A stretch of DNA of 64,000 nucleotides from Syntrophales bacterium (GTDB lineage: Bacteria > Desulfobacterota > Syntrophia > Syntrophales > PHBD01). The position numbers were made by a program. The stretch spans positions 1,280,001 through 1,344,000 of the forward strand of contig OY764159.1 of assembly GCA_963668175.1 (NCBI GenBank), given 5' to 3'. Below are positions 33,001 through 39,000 of the stretch, in pieces. Each line of letters begins with the position of its first letter. The first letter of the stretch is position 1.

Positions 33001-36000
33001 CTCGGCTATATCCGCAAGGAAGAGTTCCGGAGCTGCACGGAACTGTTTCCTGTGGACTGAGCGGTTCCAAGGACGAAAATCGCTTCGTCAGGGGCTGTTC
33101 GCGGTGATGGCGGCCTTGAAGGCGTCGGCCTTCCCTTTGGGGATGCGCAGCCGGTGATGGCCCGGAGGGATGATGTCCTGTTTCAATTCCGGGTTCATCT
33201 CCCTGATGGCCTTGAAGGTCGTATCGCAGGCCTGAGCGACGGCCTTGATGGGGATGTCCTTGGCCGTGCTGAATTCCGCCGTGTCGTAGTCGAAGGGCGG
33301 GTAGCGTTGTTCGGGGGCTATCCTGTAGCCGTAGAACTCCGGGCGGGAAAGGATGGTCTTGATGGCCAGGAGGCGAAAGACGTAGAATTCCGTCTCCAGG
33401 GGGAGATCGAGGTCGTAGTAGTTCTTCACTTCCTGGCTGTTCAGACTGCGGACGACTTTGTTCTCGCCGCAGTTGTACGCCGCGACCGCCAGCGTCCAGC
33501 TTTTATACATGTTGTAAAGGTCCGTCAGATACTGGAGGGCGGCATCCGTGGAGCGTTCGAAATTCTGCCGCTGGTCGATCCATTTATCCACCCGAAGACC
33601 GTATCGTTTAGCCGTTCCGGCGACGAACTGCCAGGGTCCAACGGCCTTGGCCGATGAGACGGCGTAGGTTTTGAGGCTGCTTTCCGCCACGACGACATAC
33701 TTCAGGTCGTCCGGAAGGTTCTTTTCTTTCAGCTTCTTCTCGATGTAGGGGAAATACCGGTTGGCCCGCTTGATCCAGAGGATGACCTGGGGGTGGTTGT
33801 AGACGGACCCGATCATCGCCTGATCCATCAATTCCCGCACATCCTGCCTTTCGAGAGGGACACGCTCCCCGCAAAAATTCAAAGCCGATGGGATATCGAA
33901 GACCGGCACCGTCGGTGCCGGACCGGGTTGGGCCGCAGCGGCATAGGGTGAAAGAAACAGACAACCTACCGCCAGACAGAAGAGGAGGGAGCCGAACAGT
34001 ACCTGTAAAATCGCCGCGGGGAAGGGACGCGGCAACTGCCCTTCCCCGCGAATGTCATGACCGACGATGCTGCTTGTGTAATGAATCATCATGGCGTTCC
34101 GTTTAACCGTCAGGCTTTCTTCCCGTAGAGCTGCTTCATGAGCCAGGCCATGTTCTTGCCGAGGTCTTTCATGGTCTGTACGCCTTCCGCATCGTTATTG
34201 ACCTCCCCGGGATCCCTGCCGATGCCCAGGCTCCAATAGCTCGAACCGGGCATGACCATCTGCATGTAGTGGAGAAAGAGGTTCATGGAGCTGAAGGCCG
34301 GTATCGCCCCGGCGCGCCGCACGGCAACGACGGACGCCCCGACCTTCCTCTTGAACATGTAGTCGTTGGCGCGGCCGACGAAACCGCACCGCTCGATGAA
34401 GGCCCTCATGTTCGACGAGACGTCGGAAAAATAGGTGGGCGAGCCGAGGAGAATGCCTTCGGCGCCTTCCATCTTCTCGATGATTTCGTTGAGTAGATCG
34501 TCCTTCATGATGCAGCGGCGGTCTTTGTTCTTGAAACATTTGTAGCAGGCCCTGCAGCCCGCAAGCTGTTTCCCCCCGAGCTGGATCATTTCCGTCTCGA
34601 TGCCTTCCTGCTTCAGTTCGTCCATGACCAAATTGAGCAAAATGGCCGTGTTGCCGTCCTTCCTCGCACTTGCGTTTAAAGCCACAACCTTCATGCGTCG
34701 TTTCCTCCTGTGATAGTAGTGACACGGTCATTCCGTGCCTGGATGATATGATGAACGCTCTCCGCTGCTATTACTTACACCAGTTTCTTCAATTCCTGCA
34801 AGAAGACGTCGTATGTCTTTTGATCGAAGAGCACGAACCGGATGGTCTTGATGTCGCCGTGTTCCTTCAGGTAATCAACGGCCGTCTTCAGGGCGATGTG
34901 TGCCGCTTCGTCCAGTGGGTAGCCGTAGGCGCCGGTGCTGATAGAAGGGAAGGCGACACTTTTGAGCCCCCGGGCGGATGCCAGCTTCAGGCTTTCCCGG
35001 TAGGCGCTTTTCAGAAGTGTCGCTTCGCCGGCCGTGCCGCCGCGGTAGATCGGTCCGACCGTGTGGATGACGAAGCCGGCCTTGAGGTTGCCGCCGGTGG
35101 TAATGACGGCCTGCCCGGTGGGGCAATAGCCGATCTGCCGGCAGGCGGCCATGATGGCTGGTCCCCCGGCCCTGTGAATGGCGCCGTCCACGCCGCCGCC
35201 GCCGCGAAGGCCTTCATTGGCCGCGTTGACGATGGCGTCCGTCTCTTCCTGCGTGATATCCCCGACAACGAGGGAAAGGGTCCCTCCGGCAATTCCGATG
35301 TCCATCCTTATCTCTCCTTTCCGCCTGAAAGAAGGCGGCGGTCCTGCCGCACGGTTATGCGTCTTCCGCCACGGGGATGCCGTCCCCATAGACGAGCATG
35401 CGATACGTCTTTTCGATGCGGTCCCAGTTCTCTTCCCGGTCCATCGACCAGTACCGGCCGATCACCGAGACGACCCGGCCCAGTTTCATCTCGGCGCATT
35501 TCTTCTCGATCTCCCGGATATAAATGGCGCCGCTTTCCGGCTGCTCCCCCCTCCTGCCCAGCATGGCGTGAATGAAGAGTTCCTCGACGCCTTCCCGTTT
35601 CGCCATGTCCATCAGGGCGAAGAGATGGCGGATGGAACCGTGGGAGCTGAAGAAAGAGACGATGCCCATGAGATGGAGGGCTTTTCCCGATCTTTTGGCT
35701 TTGTTCATGGCGTAGAGGAAGGCCTCGTTCCGGAAAAAAGATCCGTCGGCGATGGCCCGGTCGATCTGTACCCGGTCCGAATAGATTCTCCTGCCGGCAC
35801 CGATGTGGAGGTGTCCGGCTTCCGAGTTGCCCACCGTTCCCGGAGGCAGGCCGACCGCTTCGCCCGATGCGGCAAGCTTGGCTGCCGGATGCGTTTGATA
35901 GAACCGGTCGAAATTCGGCGTCCCGGCCTCGGCGATGAGATTGCCCTCGGCCGCTTCGTTGATGCCCCATCCATCCAGGAGCAGGACAAGAATCCGGGGT

Positions 36001-39000
36001 GCGGTCAACTCCGCTGCCGTGCCTTCGATAAGGGATGTGCCCGTCATGGCGGCGGGTCTGGGAAGTCCGAGGAGATGCAGGACCGTAGGCGCGACGTCCG
36101 TCAGCTCCCCGTTGCCGCGGAGGGAAGCGGTGCAGTGCGGGTGGATGAGAATGAACGGCACGGGGCTGTCCGTATGGCCCGTATCGACCACCCCGTCGGG
36201 AAACAGCCAACGCTCGGCAGTGCCGTGGTCGGCCGTGACGATGGCCGTCAGGCCGGCCTCTTCCGCCTCCGCGACGATCCGTCCCGCCTGCCTGTCGACG
36301 GCCTCGACGGCCCGGATGACGGCTCCTTTGTTCTCAATGTGGCCTACGACGTCCACATTCGGGAGATTGGCGAAGATAAATCCGCATTCGGGATCGTGGA
36401 TCTTCGCAATGACGGCGTCGGCGATGGCCTCGACGGACATCTCCGGGGCCTCGTCGAAAAGGGCGACGTCCTTCCTGGTCGGAACGACAATCCGCTCTTC
36501 CCCCGGGAGGTTTTCCTGTTTCTTGCCGTTGAGAAAGAAACCGACATGGACCGCCTTTTCGGCTTCCGTTATCTTGACCTGCTTCATGCCATGCGCCGCC
36601 AGGACGTCGCAAAGGGTCTCCCCGATGACGTCTTCCTGGGGAAAGGCCACACGGACGTTCAAGCCCTTCCTGTATTCGATCATGGTGGCGAAGGCGCCCG
36701 GCAGGTCCTTATCGACGGGAAATTCATCGAAATCCGGGCCGGTAAGGCTCTCTGTCAGTTCGATCTCCCGTTCCCCGCGTATGTTGTAGAAGATGACGGA
36801 ATCGCCCCTGCTGATTCTGCCCGCCGGTGATCCCTCCCGCGTCGTCAGCACATGCGGTTCGAGGGTTTCGTCTTCCTTGCCGTTCAGATAGGCCGTTTTT
36901 ACGGCCCGGGACAAGGGGTAAGGATCTGAAGACGGCATGGGTATCTCCTTTGCTTCGTATGAGAGTATGTTCCCGATCTGTATGGCCGGGGACGTAAGAC
37001 CATTTTTCTAACCAAATTGGCGGTGGCTGTAAAGAGAAACTTTCAGCGCAGGGCGGCATTCGCTGGCTTTTCAGTTGAAAACACGGCCTTTACATGTTAG
37101 ACGGTAAGGTTAGAAATTGTTTCGCAAAGGCCTCCGGGAGCGATGCCCGAGAGGCCGGAATGTCTGGACAAGAGCGTGACGCTGGAAGCTAAAAAGACGC
37201 CGGAAAACGTCCTGCAGGAGGAACTCCTCAAAGAGAGGGCGGAAGTCCTCTGCCGTGCCGGAGAACGTCTGGCCGAGGCCCTGGAGAAGGTCCATGCGGC
37301 GGGAAAACGGATTGAGGACCTGCTGAGGGATCTCGATCGGGCGGCTGAGGAACGGGGTTCTCGGGCGAAGAAGGATGCCCTGGATGCCGTGAACCGGGAG
37401 ATCAGGGCCTATAACACGGCCCGGGACCATGCCAAGCTCCGCTACTACTATATGATCGTGACCAGGGAGGCCCTCGGTATGCGCCGCCACCACTGGGTGG
37501 ACGAGTTTTACCGGATACCCCCCAAGAAAAAACTGCTGCGGGAAGAAAGATGACGAGATACCAGAAACAGCGCGCCAAGATGGTCGAATCCCAGTTGAAG
37601 GCCCGGGGGATCAAAGACAGCCGGGTCCTGAAGGCCATGGAGACCATCCCCAGGCATCTCTTCGTCGACGAGGCGCTCATGGACCAGGCTTACAACGACA
37701 GCCCTCTCCCCATCGACGAACGCCAGACCATCTCACAGCCCTATATCGTCGCCCTGATGACGGAGGCCCTGGGCCTTGGCGGCAGGGAAAAGGTGCTGGA
37801 AATCGGCACCGGTTCCGGTTATCAGACGGCGATCCTCGCCGCACTTGCCGACCGGGTTTTCTCCATCGAGCGCATCGCCTCCCTGGCCAACCGGGCCAGG
37901 AATATCCTGGACGCCCTCAATTTCTACAATGTGGCCATCCGGGTGGGCGATGGAACGTACGGCTGGAGGGAGGAGTCCCCGTTTGACGGCATCATTGTCA
38001 CAGCAGGTGCGCCGCGTATTCCCGAGACGTTTACGGCCCAATTGGCCGTCGGCGGCAGGCTCGTCATCCCGGTGGGCAGCCGCATATCCCAGGACCTGTT
38101 CCGGGTCACCCGCCTTTCGGAGGATGTCAACGATCTGAAGACGGAAAACCTGGGCGGGTGTCGTTTTGTGGATCTCATCGGCGAGCACGGATGGGAGAAT
38201 TGAAGGATCATTCCTGCCTGCGTCGCCTGCAGGCGGACAACTTGAGAATTGCCCCGGTCGGAAAAGGACTCTTGTTCCTCGCCGCCGTTCTTCTTTTCGT
38301 CGCCGCGATTCCGGCCTCTGCCTTCTGTGCCGCTCCGTCCAAAGCCTCCTCAGCAAAAGGCGTCTATCACCGGGTGAAGAACGGGGAAACGCTGACCGGC
38401 ATCGCCCGGGCTTACGGGATTCCGGTACAGACCATTGCCGAGGCCAACCGTATCAAAATAACGGCGCGTGTCGAAAAGGACAGCGTTATCTTCATCCCCG
38501 GGGCCAAGCGCGTCATCGAGAATACGACGCCGCTGGGCCTTGCAAAACGCGAAAAGGCGAAAGCGGCGGCTGAAAAAAGCGAGAAGAAGGGAAAAGACAA
38601 GGCCAGACCCCAGGCAAAGCGAACGGAACGGGACGAGAAGAAGGCAGCCGGGCGGGGAGTCGAGGACAGGAAGAAGGGGCCCGCCGTAACGAAAAAAGCG
38701 CCGCCGGAGGACGGAGACGACAAGCCGGTAGCCAAGGCAAAGGACAAGCAACCATCCGGCGACGAAAAGAGAATCGTTCGGAAGGATAAGAAGGACCCGC
38801 CGCAAAGAATCCGCCCCGCAGCCAAGCCGGACGATGTCCGGACCGCGCCGCCGGCGGGCGCGCGGTTCGTCTGGCCCGTGAAGGGACGGGTCGTTTCGAA
38901 ATTCGGCCTCCAGCCCGGCGGCATGTTCTATAACGGGATAAAGATTGCCGGCCGTCCGGACCGGTCCATCGTGGCCGTCGCCCCGGGCGTCGTGATCTAC

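What a model noticed while it worked through the whole genome (the two positions that open the first line are those of the whole stretch)
35355..36938. Natural circular permutation of cofactor-independent phosphoglycerate mutase, conserved across Syntrophales
g01216 (527 aa, one open frame with its own ATG and AGGAG site) contains all of a GpmI-type phosphoglycerate mutase, but in swapped order. Residues 1-305 match the C-terminal ~300 residues of canonical enzymes, and residues 316-520 match their N-terminal ~205 residues. Boldest reading: this is a functional, naturally circularly permuted iPGM whose new termini lie inside the phosphotransferase domain and whose old termini are fused; it is the form used by most Syntrophales. 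New: no circularly permuted iPGM was found in the literature searched, and it offers a ready-made natural permutant for studies of domain motion and for enzyme engineering.
Evidence so far: Domain order (pfam.tsv; calls 146, 156): iPGM_N model positions 138-216 lie at aa 11-90 and positions 1-129 at aa 392-520. Metalloenzyme positions 67-251 lie at aa 104-293 and positions 2-62 at aa 315-417. This is the only gene in the genome with inverted model order or with a swapped Swiss-Prot alignment that is a true permutation. Swiss-Prot: aa 316-520 match residues 6-210 of Geobacillus and Halalkalibacterium GpmI at 46-47% identity. Six-frame search in 40 other Desulfobacterota genomes: 20 give two separate adjacent HSPs, in canonical order in those checked by eye (e.g. 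G350, G369, G389); 2 give one colinear full-length match (G003, G382); 1 gives a partial match; 17 give none at E<=1e- [...]
(Added by a program. Inside this text positions count along the whole contig: contig position 1,280,001 is position 1 of the stretch shown here. "Call 12" and the like, gene names such as g00115 and contig names such as C1 are that model's own, and its searches are not shown. The text may have been shortened before it was handed on; [...] marks where a part breaks off. The agent that wrote the report below was given it as the finding of a first reader that could run no searches.)

Follow-up and report, generated by a model that had tools for sequence, protein, structure and literature searches.

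The report
Circularly permuted phosphoglycerate mutase family
This gene encodes a cofactor-independent phosphoglycerate mutase whose two halves are swapped compared with every studied enzyme of its kind; the swap is real, old and found in several bacterial phyla, and the enzyme probably has a side role and is not the cell's main glycolytic mutase.

Summary
ORF 35355-36938 (-) encodes 527 aa. Residues 12-304 match residues 219-509 of the solved Geobacillus iPGM, and residues 316-521 match its residues 6-211. It is one ORF in a one-contig genome.

It occurs in 106 of 201 sampled genomes of the order. It also occurs in four further families of the phylum and in 79 of 80 loci fetched with a divergent member, 71 of them Chloroflexota.

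The serine nucleophile and all metal ligands are kept. The glycerate-side motifs are remodelled and fixed: canonical SDGGVH is SFFSSH here, LDGRD is LGRRG, and the Asp154 equivalent is Gly.

The gene does not replace a standard mutase. Another PGM type is present in 92 of 106 genomes with the permuted gene and in 79 of 92 without it. Canonical iPGM, by contrast, almost excludes the other types.

In Chloroflexota the gene lies in an operon with an ApgM, kinases and HAD phosphatases, and an ApgM fusion exists.

Verdict: a real, apparently undescribed permuted subfamily that is probably an auxiliary or diverged phosphomutase. No assay exists.

The parts
35355..36938 (-). Whole gene of the permuted iPGM-type protein (527 codons plus stop at 35355-35357)
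36945..36950 (-). Shine-Dalgarno-like AAGGAG, six bases upstream of the ATG
   Evidence: read from the sequence
36906..36938 (-). New N-terminus, aa 1-11; variable in the family
   Evidence: consensus has no majority residue at most of these positions
36027..36905 (-). Segment A, aa 12-304. It equals canonical residues 219-509: the last third of the transferase domain plus the C-terminal part of the phosphatase domain. It holds R54, R57, K128, D196, H200, D237, H238 and H255.
   Evidence: 195.2 bits; model 7-305 on 1o98 214-510, Z 17.9, rmsd 3.1, 294 aligned
35994..36026 (-). Linker, aa 305-315, joining the old C-terminus to the old N-terminus. It varies in sequence, and two genomes of the order carry an insertion of about 52 aa here.
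   Evidence: (G010 and G095: two matches 157-159 nt apart in one open frame)
35376..35993 (-). Segment B, aa 316-521. It equals canonical residues 6-211: the N-terminal part of the phosphatase domain plus the first two thirds of the transferase domain. It holds D322, S372 (nucleophile), H376, H433, R463, R495 and R501.
   Evidence: 211.3 bits
35823..35825 (-). Codon of Ser372, aligned to Ser62 of 1ejj (the phosphoserine nucleophile)
   Evidence: alignment; conserved in 16 of 16 permuted and 126 of 129 canonical sequences
35637..35657 (-). Motif SFFSSHG (aa 428-434) in place of canonical SDGGVHS; invariant in 34 of 34 close relatives
35544..35561 (-). Motif LGRRGE (aa 460-465) in place of canonical LDGRD; Gly464 stands where canonical enzymes have Asp154
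35358..35375 (-). New C-terminal tail, aa 522-527; variable
34775..35305 (-). Downstream macro-domain gene (O-acetyl-ADP-ribose deacetylase type, 176 aa), 50 bases after the stop. The synteny holds inside the order only.
   Evidence: NF001664, 219 bits, cut-off 200
37143..38203 (+). Divergently transcribed neighbours: a 136-aa protein of no known family, then protein-L-isoaspartate O-methyltransferase. Syntenic inside the order.

Best explanation
The gene encodes a genuine, ancient circular permutant of the GpmI-type cofactor-independent phosphoglycerate mutase. Canonical residues of about 214-510 come first. An 11-residue linker then ties the old C-terminus to the old N-terminus, and canonical residues 6-211 follow. 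The cut therefore lies in a loop of the transferase domain.

Shown:
- The nucleophilic serine, all seven metal-ligand positions and seven of eight substrate-contact positions are kept.
- The predicted fold of the first half overlays solved, closed iPGM.
- The orthologue in S. aciditrophicus is made as protein.

Inferred:
- It is an active, metal-dependent enzyme that works through a phosphoserine intermediate.
- It belongs to a separate subfamily spread over several phyla. This subfamily most simply arose once, by tandem duplication, in-frame fusion and loss of the two outer halves.
- In this subfamily the glycerate side of the pocket is rebuilt, and the gene is kept alongside a standard PGM and does not replace it. 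I therefore read it as an auxiliary or diverged phosphomutase, possibly a phosphatase, that acts on 2-/3-phosphoglycerate under special conditions or on a closely related small phospho-acid. I do not read it as the housekeeping glycolytic mutase.
For: Permutation.

Not an artefact:
- All 120 of the 120 best database relatives cover 97-100% of the query at 64-92% identity.
- 106 of 201 genomes of the order carry the permuted form.

Active site:
- 16 of 16 permuted sequences keep the equivalents of D12, S62, H66, H123, R185, R191, R261, R264, K336, D403, H407, D444, H445 and H462.

Fold:
- AF2 model: pLDDT 79.8, pTM 0.79.
- Foldseek to 1ejj: E 1.7e-15, TMq 0.50, 299 columns.
- VIA-align to 1o98: Z 17.9, rmsd 3.1 over 294 residues, model 7-305 on chain 214-510.

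Protein detected: Q2LUU2, which equals P0097, with 2 peptides.

Remodelled pocket:
- Of 79 columns that are at least 90% conserved in 129 canonical representatives, P0001 keeps 68 and differs at 11. Ten of the 11 are at or beside active-site motifs.
- The changes are fixed or nearly fixed in the 34 close relatives.
- The Asp154 equivalent is D in 126 of 129 canonical sequences. In the 16 permuted sequences it is G in 9, S in 3 and D in 4.

Not a replacement (built):
- A PRK04135-type ApgM, a dPGM or a canonical iPGM is present in 92 of 106 genomes with the permuted gene.
- The same holds in 79 of 92 genomes without it.
- Canonical iPGM (44 genomes) never co-occurs with PRK04135-type ApgM and co-occurs with dPGM in only 5 genomes.

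Own genome: it holds a PRK04135-type ApgM of 549 bits.

Chloroflexota:
- The gene sits in the order HAD-HAD-permuted iPGM-ApgM-kinase-kinase. Within the 4 kb held on each side, ApgM is present in 56, kinase in 62 and HAD in 67 of the 71 Chloroflexota loci (80 loci fetched in all).
- Two fused permuted-iPGM-ApgM proteins of 935 and 951 aa lie on separate contigs.

Single origin:
- All 12 aligned divergent members share the same break point.
- The AU test does not reject one clade (p 0.315).
- Two abutting canonical iPGM genes (TAA directly followed by ATG) exist in L095.
Against: - There is no enzyme assay.
- The protein passes the TIGR01307 equivalog cut-off (473.4 against 330.65), and all Arg/Lys/His contacts for phosphate and carboxylate are kept. 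Plain PGM activity therefore remains quite possible.
- Carrying two PGMs is common in bacteria. Foster 2010 (PMC2964296, passages read) counts 57 of 184 gammaproteobacterial genomes with both dPGM and iPGM. Co-occurrence alone therefore does not show a different function.
- 14 of 106 genomes with the permuted gene showed none of the three standard types. Seven of these have only the PRK04200/TIGR02535-type ApgM-like gene. In the window's genome that gene lies next to homoserine dehydrogenase and may be a homoserine kinase.
- One Anaerolineales chromosome (G589) has the permuted gene, only a partial ApgM and no dPGM.
- The genomes are related, so the counts overstate independence.
- In the operon and the fusion, the ApgM partner could be the diverged enzyme instead.
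- The role of Asp154 is recalled, not read here; the two structure papers were not held.
- The model was not superposed with a permutation-aware aligner.
Confidence: 0.55

Rival explanations
1. This is simply a fully functional 2PG/3PG mutase in permuted form. It serves glycolysis and gluconeogenesis, redundantly with or in preference to the ApgM. The motif changes are compensations for the new chain topology.
For: - TIGR01307 scores 473.4 bits, over its cut-off.
- All metal ligands, the serine and seven of eight substrate contacts are kept.
- A small permuted group (P0124, P0129, P0132) keeps the canonical SDxGVH and LDGRD motifs, so the permutation as such is compatible with the canonical pocket.
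- Seven genomes of the order and one Anaerolineales chromosome have no other clear PGM.
- If the near-universal PRK04200-type gene is a homoserine kinase, fewer alternatives remain.
Against: - The presence of another standard PGM is the same with the permuted gene (92 of 106) as without it (79 of 92). Canonical iPGM does displace the others.
- Ten near-invariant iPGM positions are replaced and fixed.
- The operon and the fusion with another PGM-type enzyme argue against the two doing the same step.
- In the S. aciditrophicus proteome table it has 2 PSMs against 39 for the ApgM-type SYN_00891.
Confidence: 0.35
2. This rival concerns origin only. The permutation arose at least twice at the same loop: once for the large group (Desulfobacterota plus Chloroflexota and others) and once for the small group that keeps canonical motifs.
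For: - Both free trees place P0124, P0129 and P0132 inside canonical sequences, away from the large permuted group (FastTree, IQ-TREE C20 PMSF).
- In one search the 27 other permuted rows lie on one side of a branch with support 99.
- The starred branches of that tree force at least 2 changes.
Against: - The break point is the same in all 12 aligned members.
- The AU test does not reject one clade of all 30 permuted rows (p-AU 0.315, delta lnL 26.4). It used LG+F+G4 and fast searches only.
- The test under the mixture model did not finish.
Confidence: 0.3
3. Assembly artefact, a recent rearrangement or a decaying pseudogene.
For: One genome of the order (G122, 70% complete) has a copy with several stop codons.
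Against: - It is one open frame in a one-contig genome.
- More than 100 full-length orthologues without stops occur in independent assemblies, complete genomes among them.
- Catalytic residues are conserved.
- Peptides of the orthologue were detected.
Confidence: 0.01
4. A catalytically dead, regulatory or binding protein derived from iPGM.
For: None directly. The only hints are the altered pocket motifs and the low peptide count.
Against: The serine nucleophile and all metal ligands are invariant in 16 of 16 permuted sequences across phyla. A dead enzyme would not be expected to keep them.
Confidence: 0.04

Closest known systems
GpmI/GpmM-type cofactor-independent phosphoglycerate mutase (e.g. 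Geobacillus stearothermophilus, PDB 1ejj, 1o98)
   Same: - It has both domains (Metalloenzyme/phosphatase and iPGM_N/transferase).
- The serine nucleophile, metal ligands and Arg/Lys/His contacts are kept.
- The length is about the same (527 against 511 aa).
- The predicted first half overlays chain residues 214-510.
   Different: - The chain order is circularly permuted, with the break near canonical residue 212-218.
- Ten near-invariant positions are replaced (DGGVH, DGRD, RPDR, DHGN, GHSG and HVTFF motifs).
- It does not displace other PGM types in genomes.
ApgM, the archaeal-type iPGM (PF10143, TIGR00306; PRK04135 and PRK04200 subtypes)
   Same: Same alkaline-phosphatase-type metalloenzyme core. 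It is present in the same genomes, adjacent in Chloroflexota, and fused in P0305 and P0328.
   Different: It has a different inserted cap domain and is about 400 aa. It matches P0001 only weakly (TIGR00306, 32.7 bits). It is not a permuted relative.
Phosphopentomutase DeoB
   Same: Same superfamily core and phospho-enzyme mutase logic. There is a weak match (NF009049, 37.1 bits over aa 168-305).
   Different: The cap domain and the substrate differ. The score is far below the cut-off of 254.
Other natural circular permutants (eukaryotic versus bacterial glutathione synthetase, cited in PMC2876114; DNA methyltransferases and swaposins, recalled)
   Same: The same kind of event, explained by the same duplication-fusion-truncation model. 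A tandem pair of abutting iPGM genes, as in L095, is the expected starting layout.
   Different: Here the cut lies inside one domain of a two-domain hinge enzyme, so the chain now crosses between the domains in a different order.

Membership tests
GpmI-type iPGM (TIGR01307 / PF06415 + PF01676) | Both the phosphatase (Metalloenzyme) domain and the transferase (iPGM_N) domain are present | tested here: met
   186.4 and 188.2 bits
GpmI-type iPGM (TIGR01307 / PF06415 + PF01676) | The chain is colinear with the family model | tested here: not met
   two stretches in swapped order
GpmI-type iPGM (TIGR01307 / PF06415 + PF01676) | Curated whole-protein score cut-off is reached | tested here: inconclusive
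   TIGR01307 scores 473.4, over its cut-off of 330.65 (summed over two stretches). NF003897 scores 378.8, under its cut-off of 862.
GpmI-type iPGM (TIGR01307 / PF06415 + PF01676) | Nucleophilic Ser62 and metal ligands D12, D403, H407, D444, H445, H462 (Geobacillus numbering, recalled; the C. elegans equivalents were read in PMC5382265) | tested here: met
   alignment: S372, D322, D196, H200, D237, H238, H255; kept in 16 of 16 permuted sequences.
GpmI-type iPGM (TIGR01307 / PF06415 + PF01676) | Substrate contacts H123, R153, D154, R185, R191, R261, R264, K336 (roles recalled) | tested here: not met
   Seven of eight are kept. The D154 equivalent is G464, invariant in 34 of 34 relatives. It is D in 126 of 129 canonical sequences.
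GpmI-type iPGM (TIGR01307 / PF06415 + PF01676) | Interconverts 2- and 3-phosphoglycerate | not testable with these tools
   No assay.
Natural circular permutant | Two segments, each homologous to the reference, in swapped order, which together cover it once | tested here: met
   aa 12-304 on 219-509 and aa 316-521 on 6-211. There is no second copy of either half.
Natural circular permutant | Encoded as one gene and inherited, i.e. not an assembly or annotation effect | tested here: met
Natural circular permutant | Same three-dimensional fold as the reference | tested here: inconclusive
   The first half overlays solved iPGM (Z 17.9, rmsd 3.1). Both aligners are sequential, so the whole-molecule overlay was not made.

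The most novel reading that the evidence does not exclude
The permuted proteins are not phosphoglycerate mutases. They form a new enzyme family that moves or removes phosphate on another small phospho-acid or sugar acid.
- In Chloroflexota it would work together with an ApgM-type partner, sometimes fused to it, in a LacI-controlled pathway with two PRK-like kinases and two HAD phosphatases.
- In the Syntrophales-type lineage it would have been kept for a still unknown reaction.
- The change of chain topology would have accompanied the change of function.
Probability: 0.35. Interest if true: 0.78.

Novelty: new variant of a known kind. Interest (0 to 1): 0.62.

Why it matters
- iPGM is a textbook two-domain hinge enzyme and a drug target in nematodes and trypanosomatids. 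A natural permutant with its cut inside the transferase domain offers a ready-made test of how chain connectivity affects domain closure and folding.
- Annotation pipelines name these proteins either 'phosphoglycerate mutase' or 'alkaline phosphatase family protein'. If the subfamily does not act as the housekeeping mutase, metabolic reconstructions of syntrophs and Anaerolineae that rely on it are wrong.
- The Chloroflexota operon and the ApgM fusion point to an uncharacterised phospho-metabolite pathway.
- The abutting tandem iPGM genes in L095 illustrate the first step of the duplication route to permutation.

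Tried and rejected
- **Papers.** The two structure papers (EMBO J 2000, Biophys J 2007) were not held. The roles of Asp154 and the domain limits are therefore recalled. Searches for residue roles gave nothing useful.
- **Literature on a permuted iPGM.** 'circular permutation' + 'phosphoglycerate mutase' gave 5 papers, none relevant from the listing; one was checked by passages. 'circularly permuted' + 'iPGM' gave 0 papers. 'circular permutation' + 'alkaline phosphatase superfamily' gave 1 paper, unrelated. In Foster 2010 the word stem 'permut' occurs 0 times. Subscription journals are not covered.
- **The search for related loci with P0179 and P0156.** The 31 loci and 16 of the 17 loci were canonical iPGMs hit through chance patterns. 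The 17th is the tandem pair L095.
- **Macro-domain link.** I considered this as a functional clue and rejected it. The macro gene is adjacent in 16 of 18 loci inside the order and in 0 of 19 permuted loci of other families of the phylum. Neighbours in those other families vary.
- **Chloroflexota cluster in the window's genome.** There are no homologues of the kinases or HADs at E 1e-5.
- **RNA evidence.** No RNA holder was listed.
- **Complex prediction.** The job (Chloroflexota permuted protein with its ApgM neighbour) was never accepted because the queue was full. There is no result of any kind.
- **treekit AU test.** It was unfinished after 1152 s. A full IQ-TREE search timed out. The AU test rests on fast searches under LG+F+G4.
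- **Artefact or pseudogene.** Rejected; see Rival explanations.

Full report
**What is there.** The minus-strand ORF 35355-36938 encodes 527 residues. It starts at an ATG six bases after AAGGAG. Pfam finds iPGM_N and Metalloenzyme, each in two stretches. iPGM_N model positions 1-129 lie at aa 392-520, and Metalloenzyme positions 67-251 lie at aa 104-293. TIGR01307 matches in two stretches, with aa 11-304 on model positions 215-504. Against solved structures, aa 316-521 align to residues 6-211 of Geobacillus iPGM (1ejj), and aa 12-304 align to residues 219-509. All 11 of 11 matched PDB sequences show two stretches. The window's genome is one contig of 4.57 Mb, and these two halves are its only TIGR01307 matches. 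The protein is a circular permutant whose new ends lie between canonical residues of about 211 and 219, inside the transferase domain. The old ends are joined by aa 305-315.

**It is real and inherited.** The 120 best of 7997 database relatives all cover 97-100% of the query at 64-92% identity and are 519-567 aa long. Named ones come from Syntrophus aciditrophicus SB, Smithella, Smithellaceae and Syntrophales. In 201 sampled genomes of the order (the window's own included), 142 have a match. I sorted these by E-value and match pattern:
- 106 genomes carry the permuted form. This count includes contig-end fragments and one copy with stops (G122).
- 33 genomes carry only a canonical iPGM.
- 3 genomes have weak fragments.
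- 59 genomes have no match.
- 11 of the 106 carry a canonical iPGM as well.

By my reading of the table, the permuted form occurs in 21 of the 24 families.

**It is much wider than Syntrophales.** A profile of 12 permuted proteins, searched over 401 genomes of the phylum, gave full-length colinear matches in four families outside the order: f61 (10 genomes), f68 (7, plus one fragment), f102 (1) and f125 (1). Among the 150 best cluster representatives of 1.84 billion proteins, 13 are permuted, 133 are canonical and 4 are partial. One divergent representative belongs to a cluster named Candidatus Desulfofervidus auxilii. A search with another representative, P0153, found 552 related stretches in species genomes. 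Of the 80 kept, 79 are permuted and one is cut by a contig end. Their sources are 71 Chloroflexota (mostly Anaerolineae, among them the isolate Levilinea saccharolytica KIBI-1), 4 Bipolaricaulota, 2 Thermodesulfobacteriota, and single MAGs labelled Clostridia, Thorarchaeota and Thermotogota.

**Catalytic machinery.** I counted along the HMMER alignment. The equivalents of Ser62 and of D12, H66, H123, R153, R185, R191, R261, R264, K336, D403, H407, D444, H445 and H462 are S372, D322, H376, H433, R463, R495, R501, R54, R57, K128, D196, H200, D237, H238 and H255. The Geobacillus numbering and roles are recalled. The C. elegans equivalents of the two metal sites and the serine were read in PMC5382265. 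Across 16 permuted and 129 canonical sequences these positions are kept in 16 of 16 permuted ones, except the R153 equivalent, which is kept in 13 of 16.

The exception is Asp154. It is D in 126 of 129 canonical sequences. In the 16 permuted ones it is G in 9, S in 3 and D in 4. More broadly, 79 columns are at least 90% conserved in the canonical set. P0001 keeps 68 of them and differs at 11. One (L to V) is trivial. The other ten sit in or beside the motifs DGGVH, DGRD, RPDR, HVTFF, NxANPD, GHSG and DHGN. In 34 close relatives SFFSSHG and LGRRGE are invariant. A small permuted group (P0124, P0129, P0132) keeps the canonical motifs.

**Structure.** An AlphaFold2 model built on 34 sequences has pLDDT 79.8 and pTM 0.79. 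Foldseek's best hit is 1ejj (E 1.7e-15, 299 columns, TMq 0.50, rmsd 3.2). VIA-align puts model residues 7-305 on 1o98 residues 214-510 (Z 17.9, rmsd 3.1, 294 aligned). Substrate-bound closed structures give rmsd 3.1-3.3 (S. aureus: 4.8-4.9), whereas the open C. elegans, B. anthracis and T. brucei structures give 7.5-9.4. Half coverage is what a sequential aligner must give for a permutant.

**Does it serve as the cell's mutase?** The window's genome has two other ApgM-type genes and no dPGM over cut-off.
- One is a PRK04135-type ApgM (549 bits).
- The other is a PRK04200/TIGR02535-type ApgM-like gene (539 and 521 bits). It lies directly after homoserine dehydrogenase, which fits its label 'proposed homoserine kinase'.

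Across the 201 genomes, an ApgM-family gene of some type is present in 189, PRK04135-type ApgM in 94 and dPGM in 54. I compiled these:
- Canonical iPGM (44 genomes) never co-occurs with PRK04135-type ApgM, and co-occurs with dPGM in 5. Of the 33 canonical-only genomes, 29 have neither. These types therefore replace one another.
- The permuted gene behaves differently. One of the three standard types is present in 92 of 106 genomes that have it (ApgM 57, dPGM 36, canonical 11) and in 79 of 92 that lack it.
- The accompanying type differs between families. For example, f5 has dPGM in 16 of 19 and ApgM in 0 of 19, f1 has ApgM in 8 of 8, and genus g39 has canonical iPGM.
- Spot checks agree. Three genomes without ApgM have dPGM. 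Five permuted-gene carriers outside the order all have ApgM.

Against this reading:
- 14 carriers showed none of the three types. Seven of these have only the PRK04200-type gene.
- One Anaerolineales chromosome has only a partial ApgM and no dPGM.
- Related genomes are not independent.
- Double PGM sets are common in bacteria (PMC2964296, passages read).

In the S. aciditrophicus proteome table (PMC8942843, supplementary file 6), the orthologue Q2LUU2 (identical to P0097) has 2 PSMs. The three ApgM-type proteins have 39, 6 and 4.

**Gene neighbourhood.** Inside the order a macro-domain gene follows directly in 16 of 18 loci. A small unknown gene and pcm lie divergently upstream. In 0 of 19 permuted loci from other families of the phylum is the macro gene present, and neighbours there vary. 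I take this as inherited synteny and not as a functional link.

In Chloroflexota the gene sits in a conserved cluster. A LacI-type regulator lies divergently. Two HAD hydrolases come next, then the permuted gene, a PRK04135-type ApgM (562 bits) and two 400-aa proteins with a PRK/uridine-kinase domain. Within the 4 kb held on each side, ApgM is present in 56, the kinase in 62 and HAD in 67 of the 71 Chloroflexota loci, and none of the three is present in the 9 other loci. In 30 of 51 loci with a full ApgM downstream the two genes abut. In 21 they are 0.75-1.3 kb apart. Two metagenomic proteins of 935 and 951 aa, on separate contigs, fuse a permuted iPGM to an ApgM. The window's genome lacks the kinases and HADs.

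**Origin.** All 12 aligned divergent members begin and end at the same canonical position. Trees of the un-permuted segments split the permuted sequences into two groups. A large group of 27 rows lies on one side of a branch with support 99. The three canonical-motif sequences lie among canonical ones. An AU test does not reject one clade of all 30 permuted rows (p 0.315; LG+F+G4, fast searches). One origin followed by motif change is the simplest reading, but two origins are not excluded. In passing I found two canonical iPGM genes in tandem, with the TAA of the first directly followed by the ATG of the second. The copies are 34% identical (L095). This is the layout from which loss of one stop codon plus loss of the outer halves would give a permutant.

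**Verdict.** The permutation is real, old and, as far as my searches reach, undescribed. The enzyme is very probably active. I give 0.55 to an auxiliary or diverged role with a rebuilt glycerate pocket, 0.35 to an ordinary mutase in permuted form, and small odds to the rest. Only an assay can decide.

Noticed in passing
L095:4013-7075: Two canonical iPGM genes lie in tandem in an unclassified bacterial MAG. The stop TAA of the first is directly followed by the ATG of the second, and the copies are 34% identical. This is the expected precursor layout for permutation by duplication.
   Followed up: partly
P0305 (935 aa) and P0328 (951 aa), metagenomic: Natural fusions of a permuted iPGM (aa 16-522) with an ApgM-type mutase (PhosphMutase domain at aa 584-754), on two separate contigs.
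   Followed up: partly
L138:1280-9252, L109, L120, L150 and other Chloroflexota loci: A conserved cluster: LacI regulator, two or three HAD hydrolases, permuted iPGM, PRK04135-type ApgM, and two 400-aa PRK/uridine-kinase-like proteins with an unassigned N-terminal half. Sugar-acid genes lie nearby (UxaE, GFO/IDH/MocA oxidoreductase, xylose-isomerase-like TIM barrel, MFS). The pathway is unknown.
   Followed up: partly
G010:C6:64395-66098 and G095:C36:13549-15264: In two genomes of one genus the permuted gene carries an insertion of about 52 aa exactly at the linker that joins the old termini, within one open frame.
   Followed up: no
G000:C1:2848643-2851163 (L178:3943-6464): The PRK04200/TIGR02535-type ApgM-like gene of the window's genome overlaps the end of homoserine dehydrogenase. 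This fits the 'proposed homoserine kinase' label. An ApgM-family (TIGR00306) match, which this type also gives, is present in 189 of 201 genomes of the order; the subtype was not counted separately.
   Followed up: partly
order-level sample: Canonical iPGM and PRK04135-type ApgM are mutually exclusive in the sample (0 of 44 canonical-iPGM genomes have the ApgM). dPGM fills many of the gaps.
   Followed up: partly
P0173 (5027 aa) and P0312 (986 aa): Very long predicted proteins that contain a permuted iPGM segment (P0173 at aa 3859-4371; P0312 at aa 335-856, with a 330-aa N-terminal extension). They may be gene-calling errors or true fusions.
   Followed up: no
window 35178-36830 (+): A 550-aa open frame runs antisense to the gene. 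I take it as a by-product of high G+C, and no family search was made on it.
   Followed up: no
G122:C3:134897-136282: In one incomplete genome (70%) the permuted gene is broken by several stop codons. This is the only clearly decayed copy seen in the order sample.
   Followed up: no
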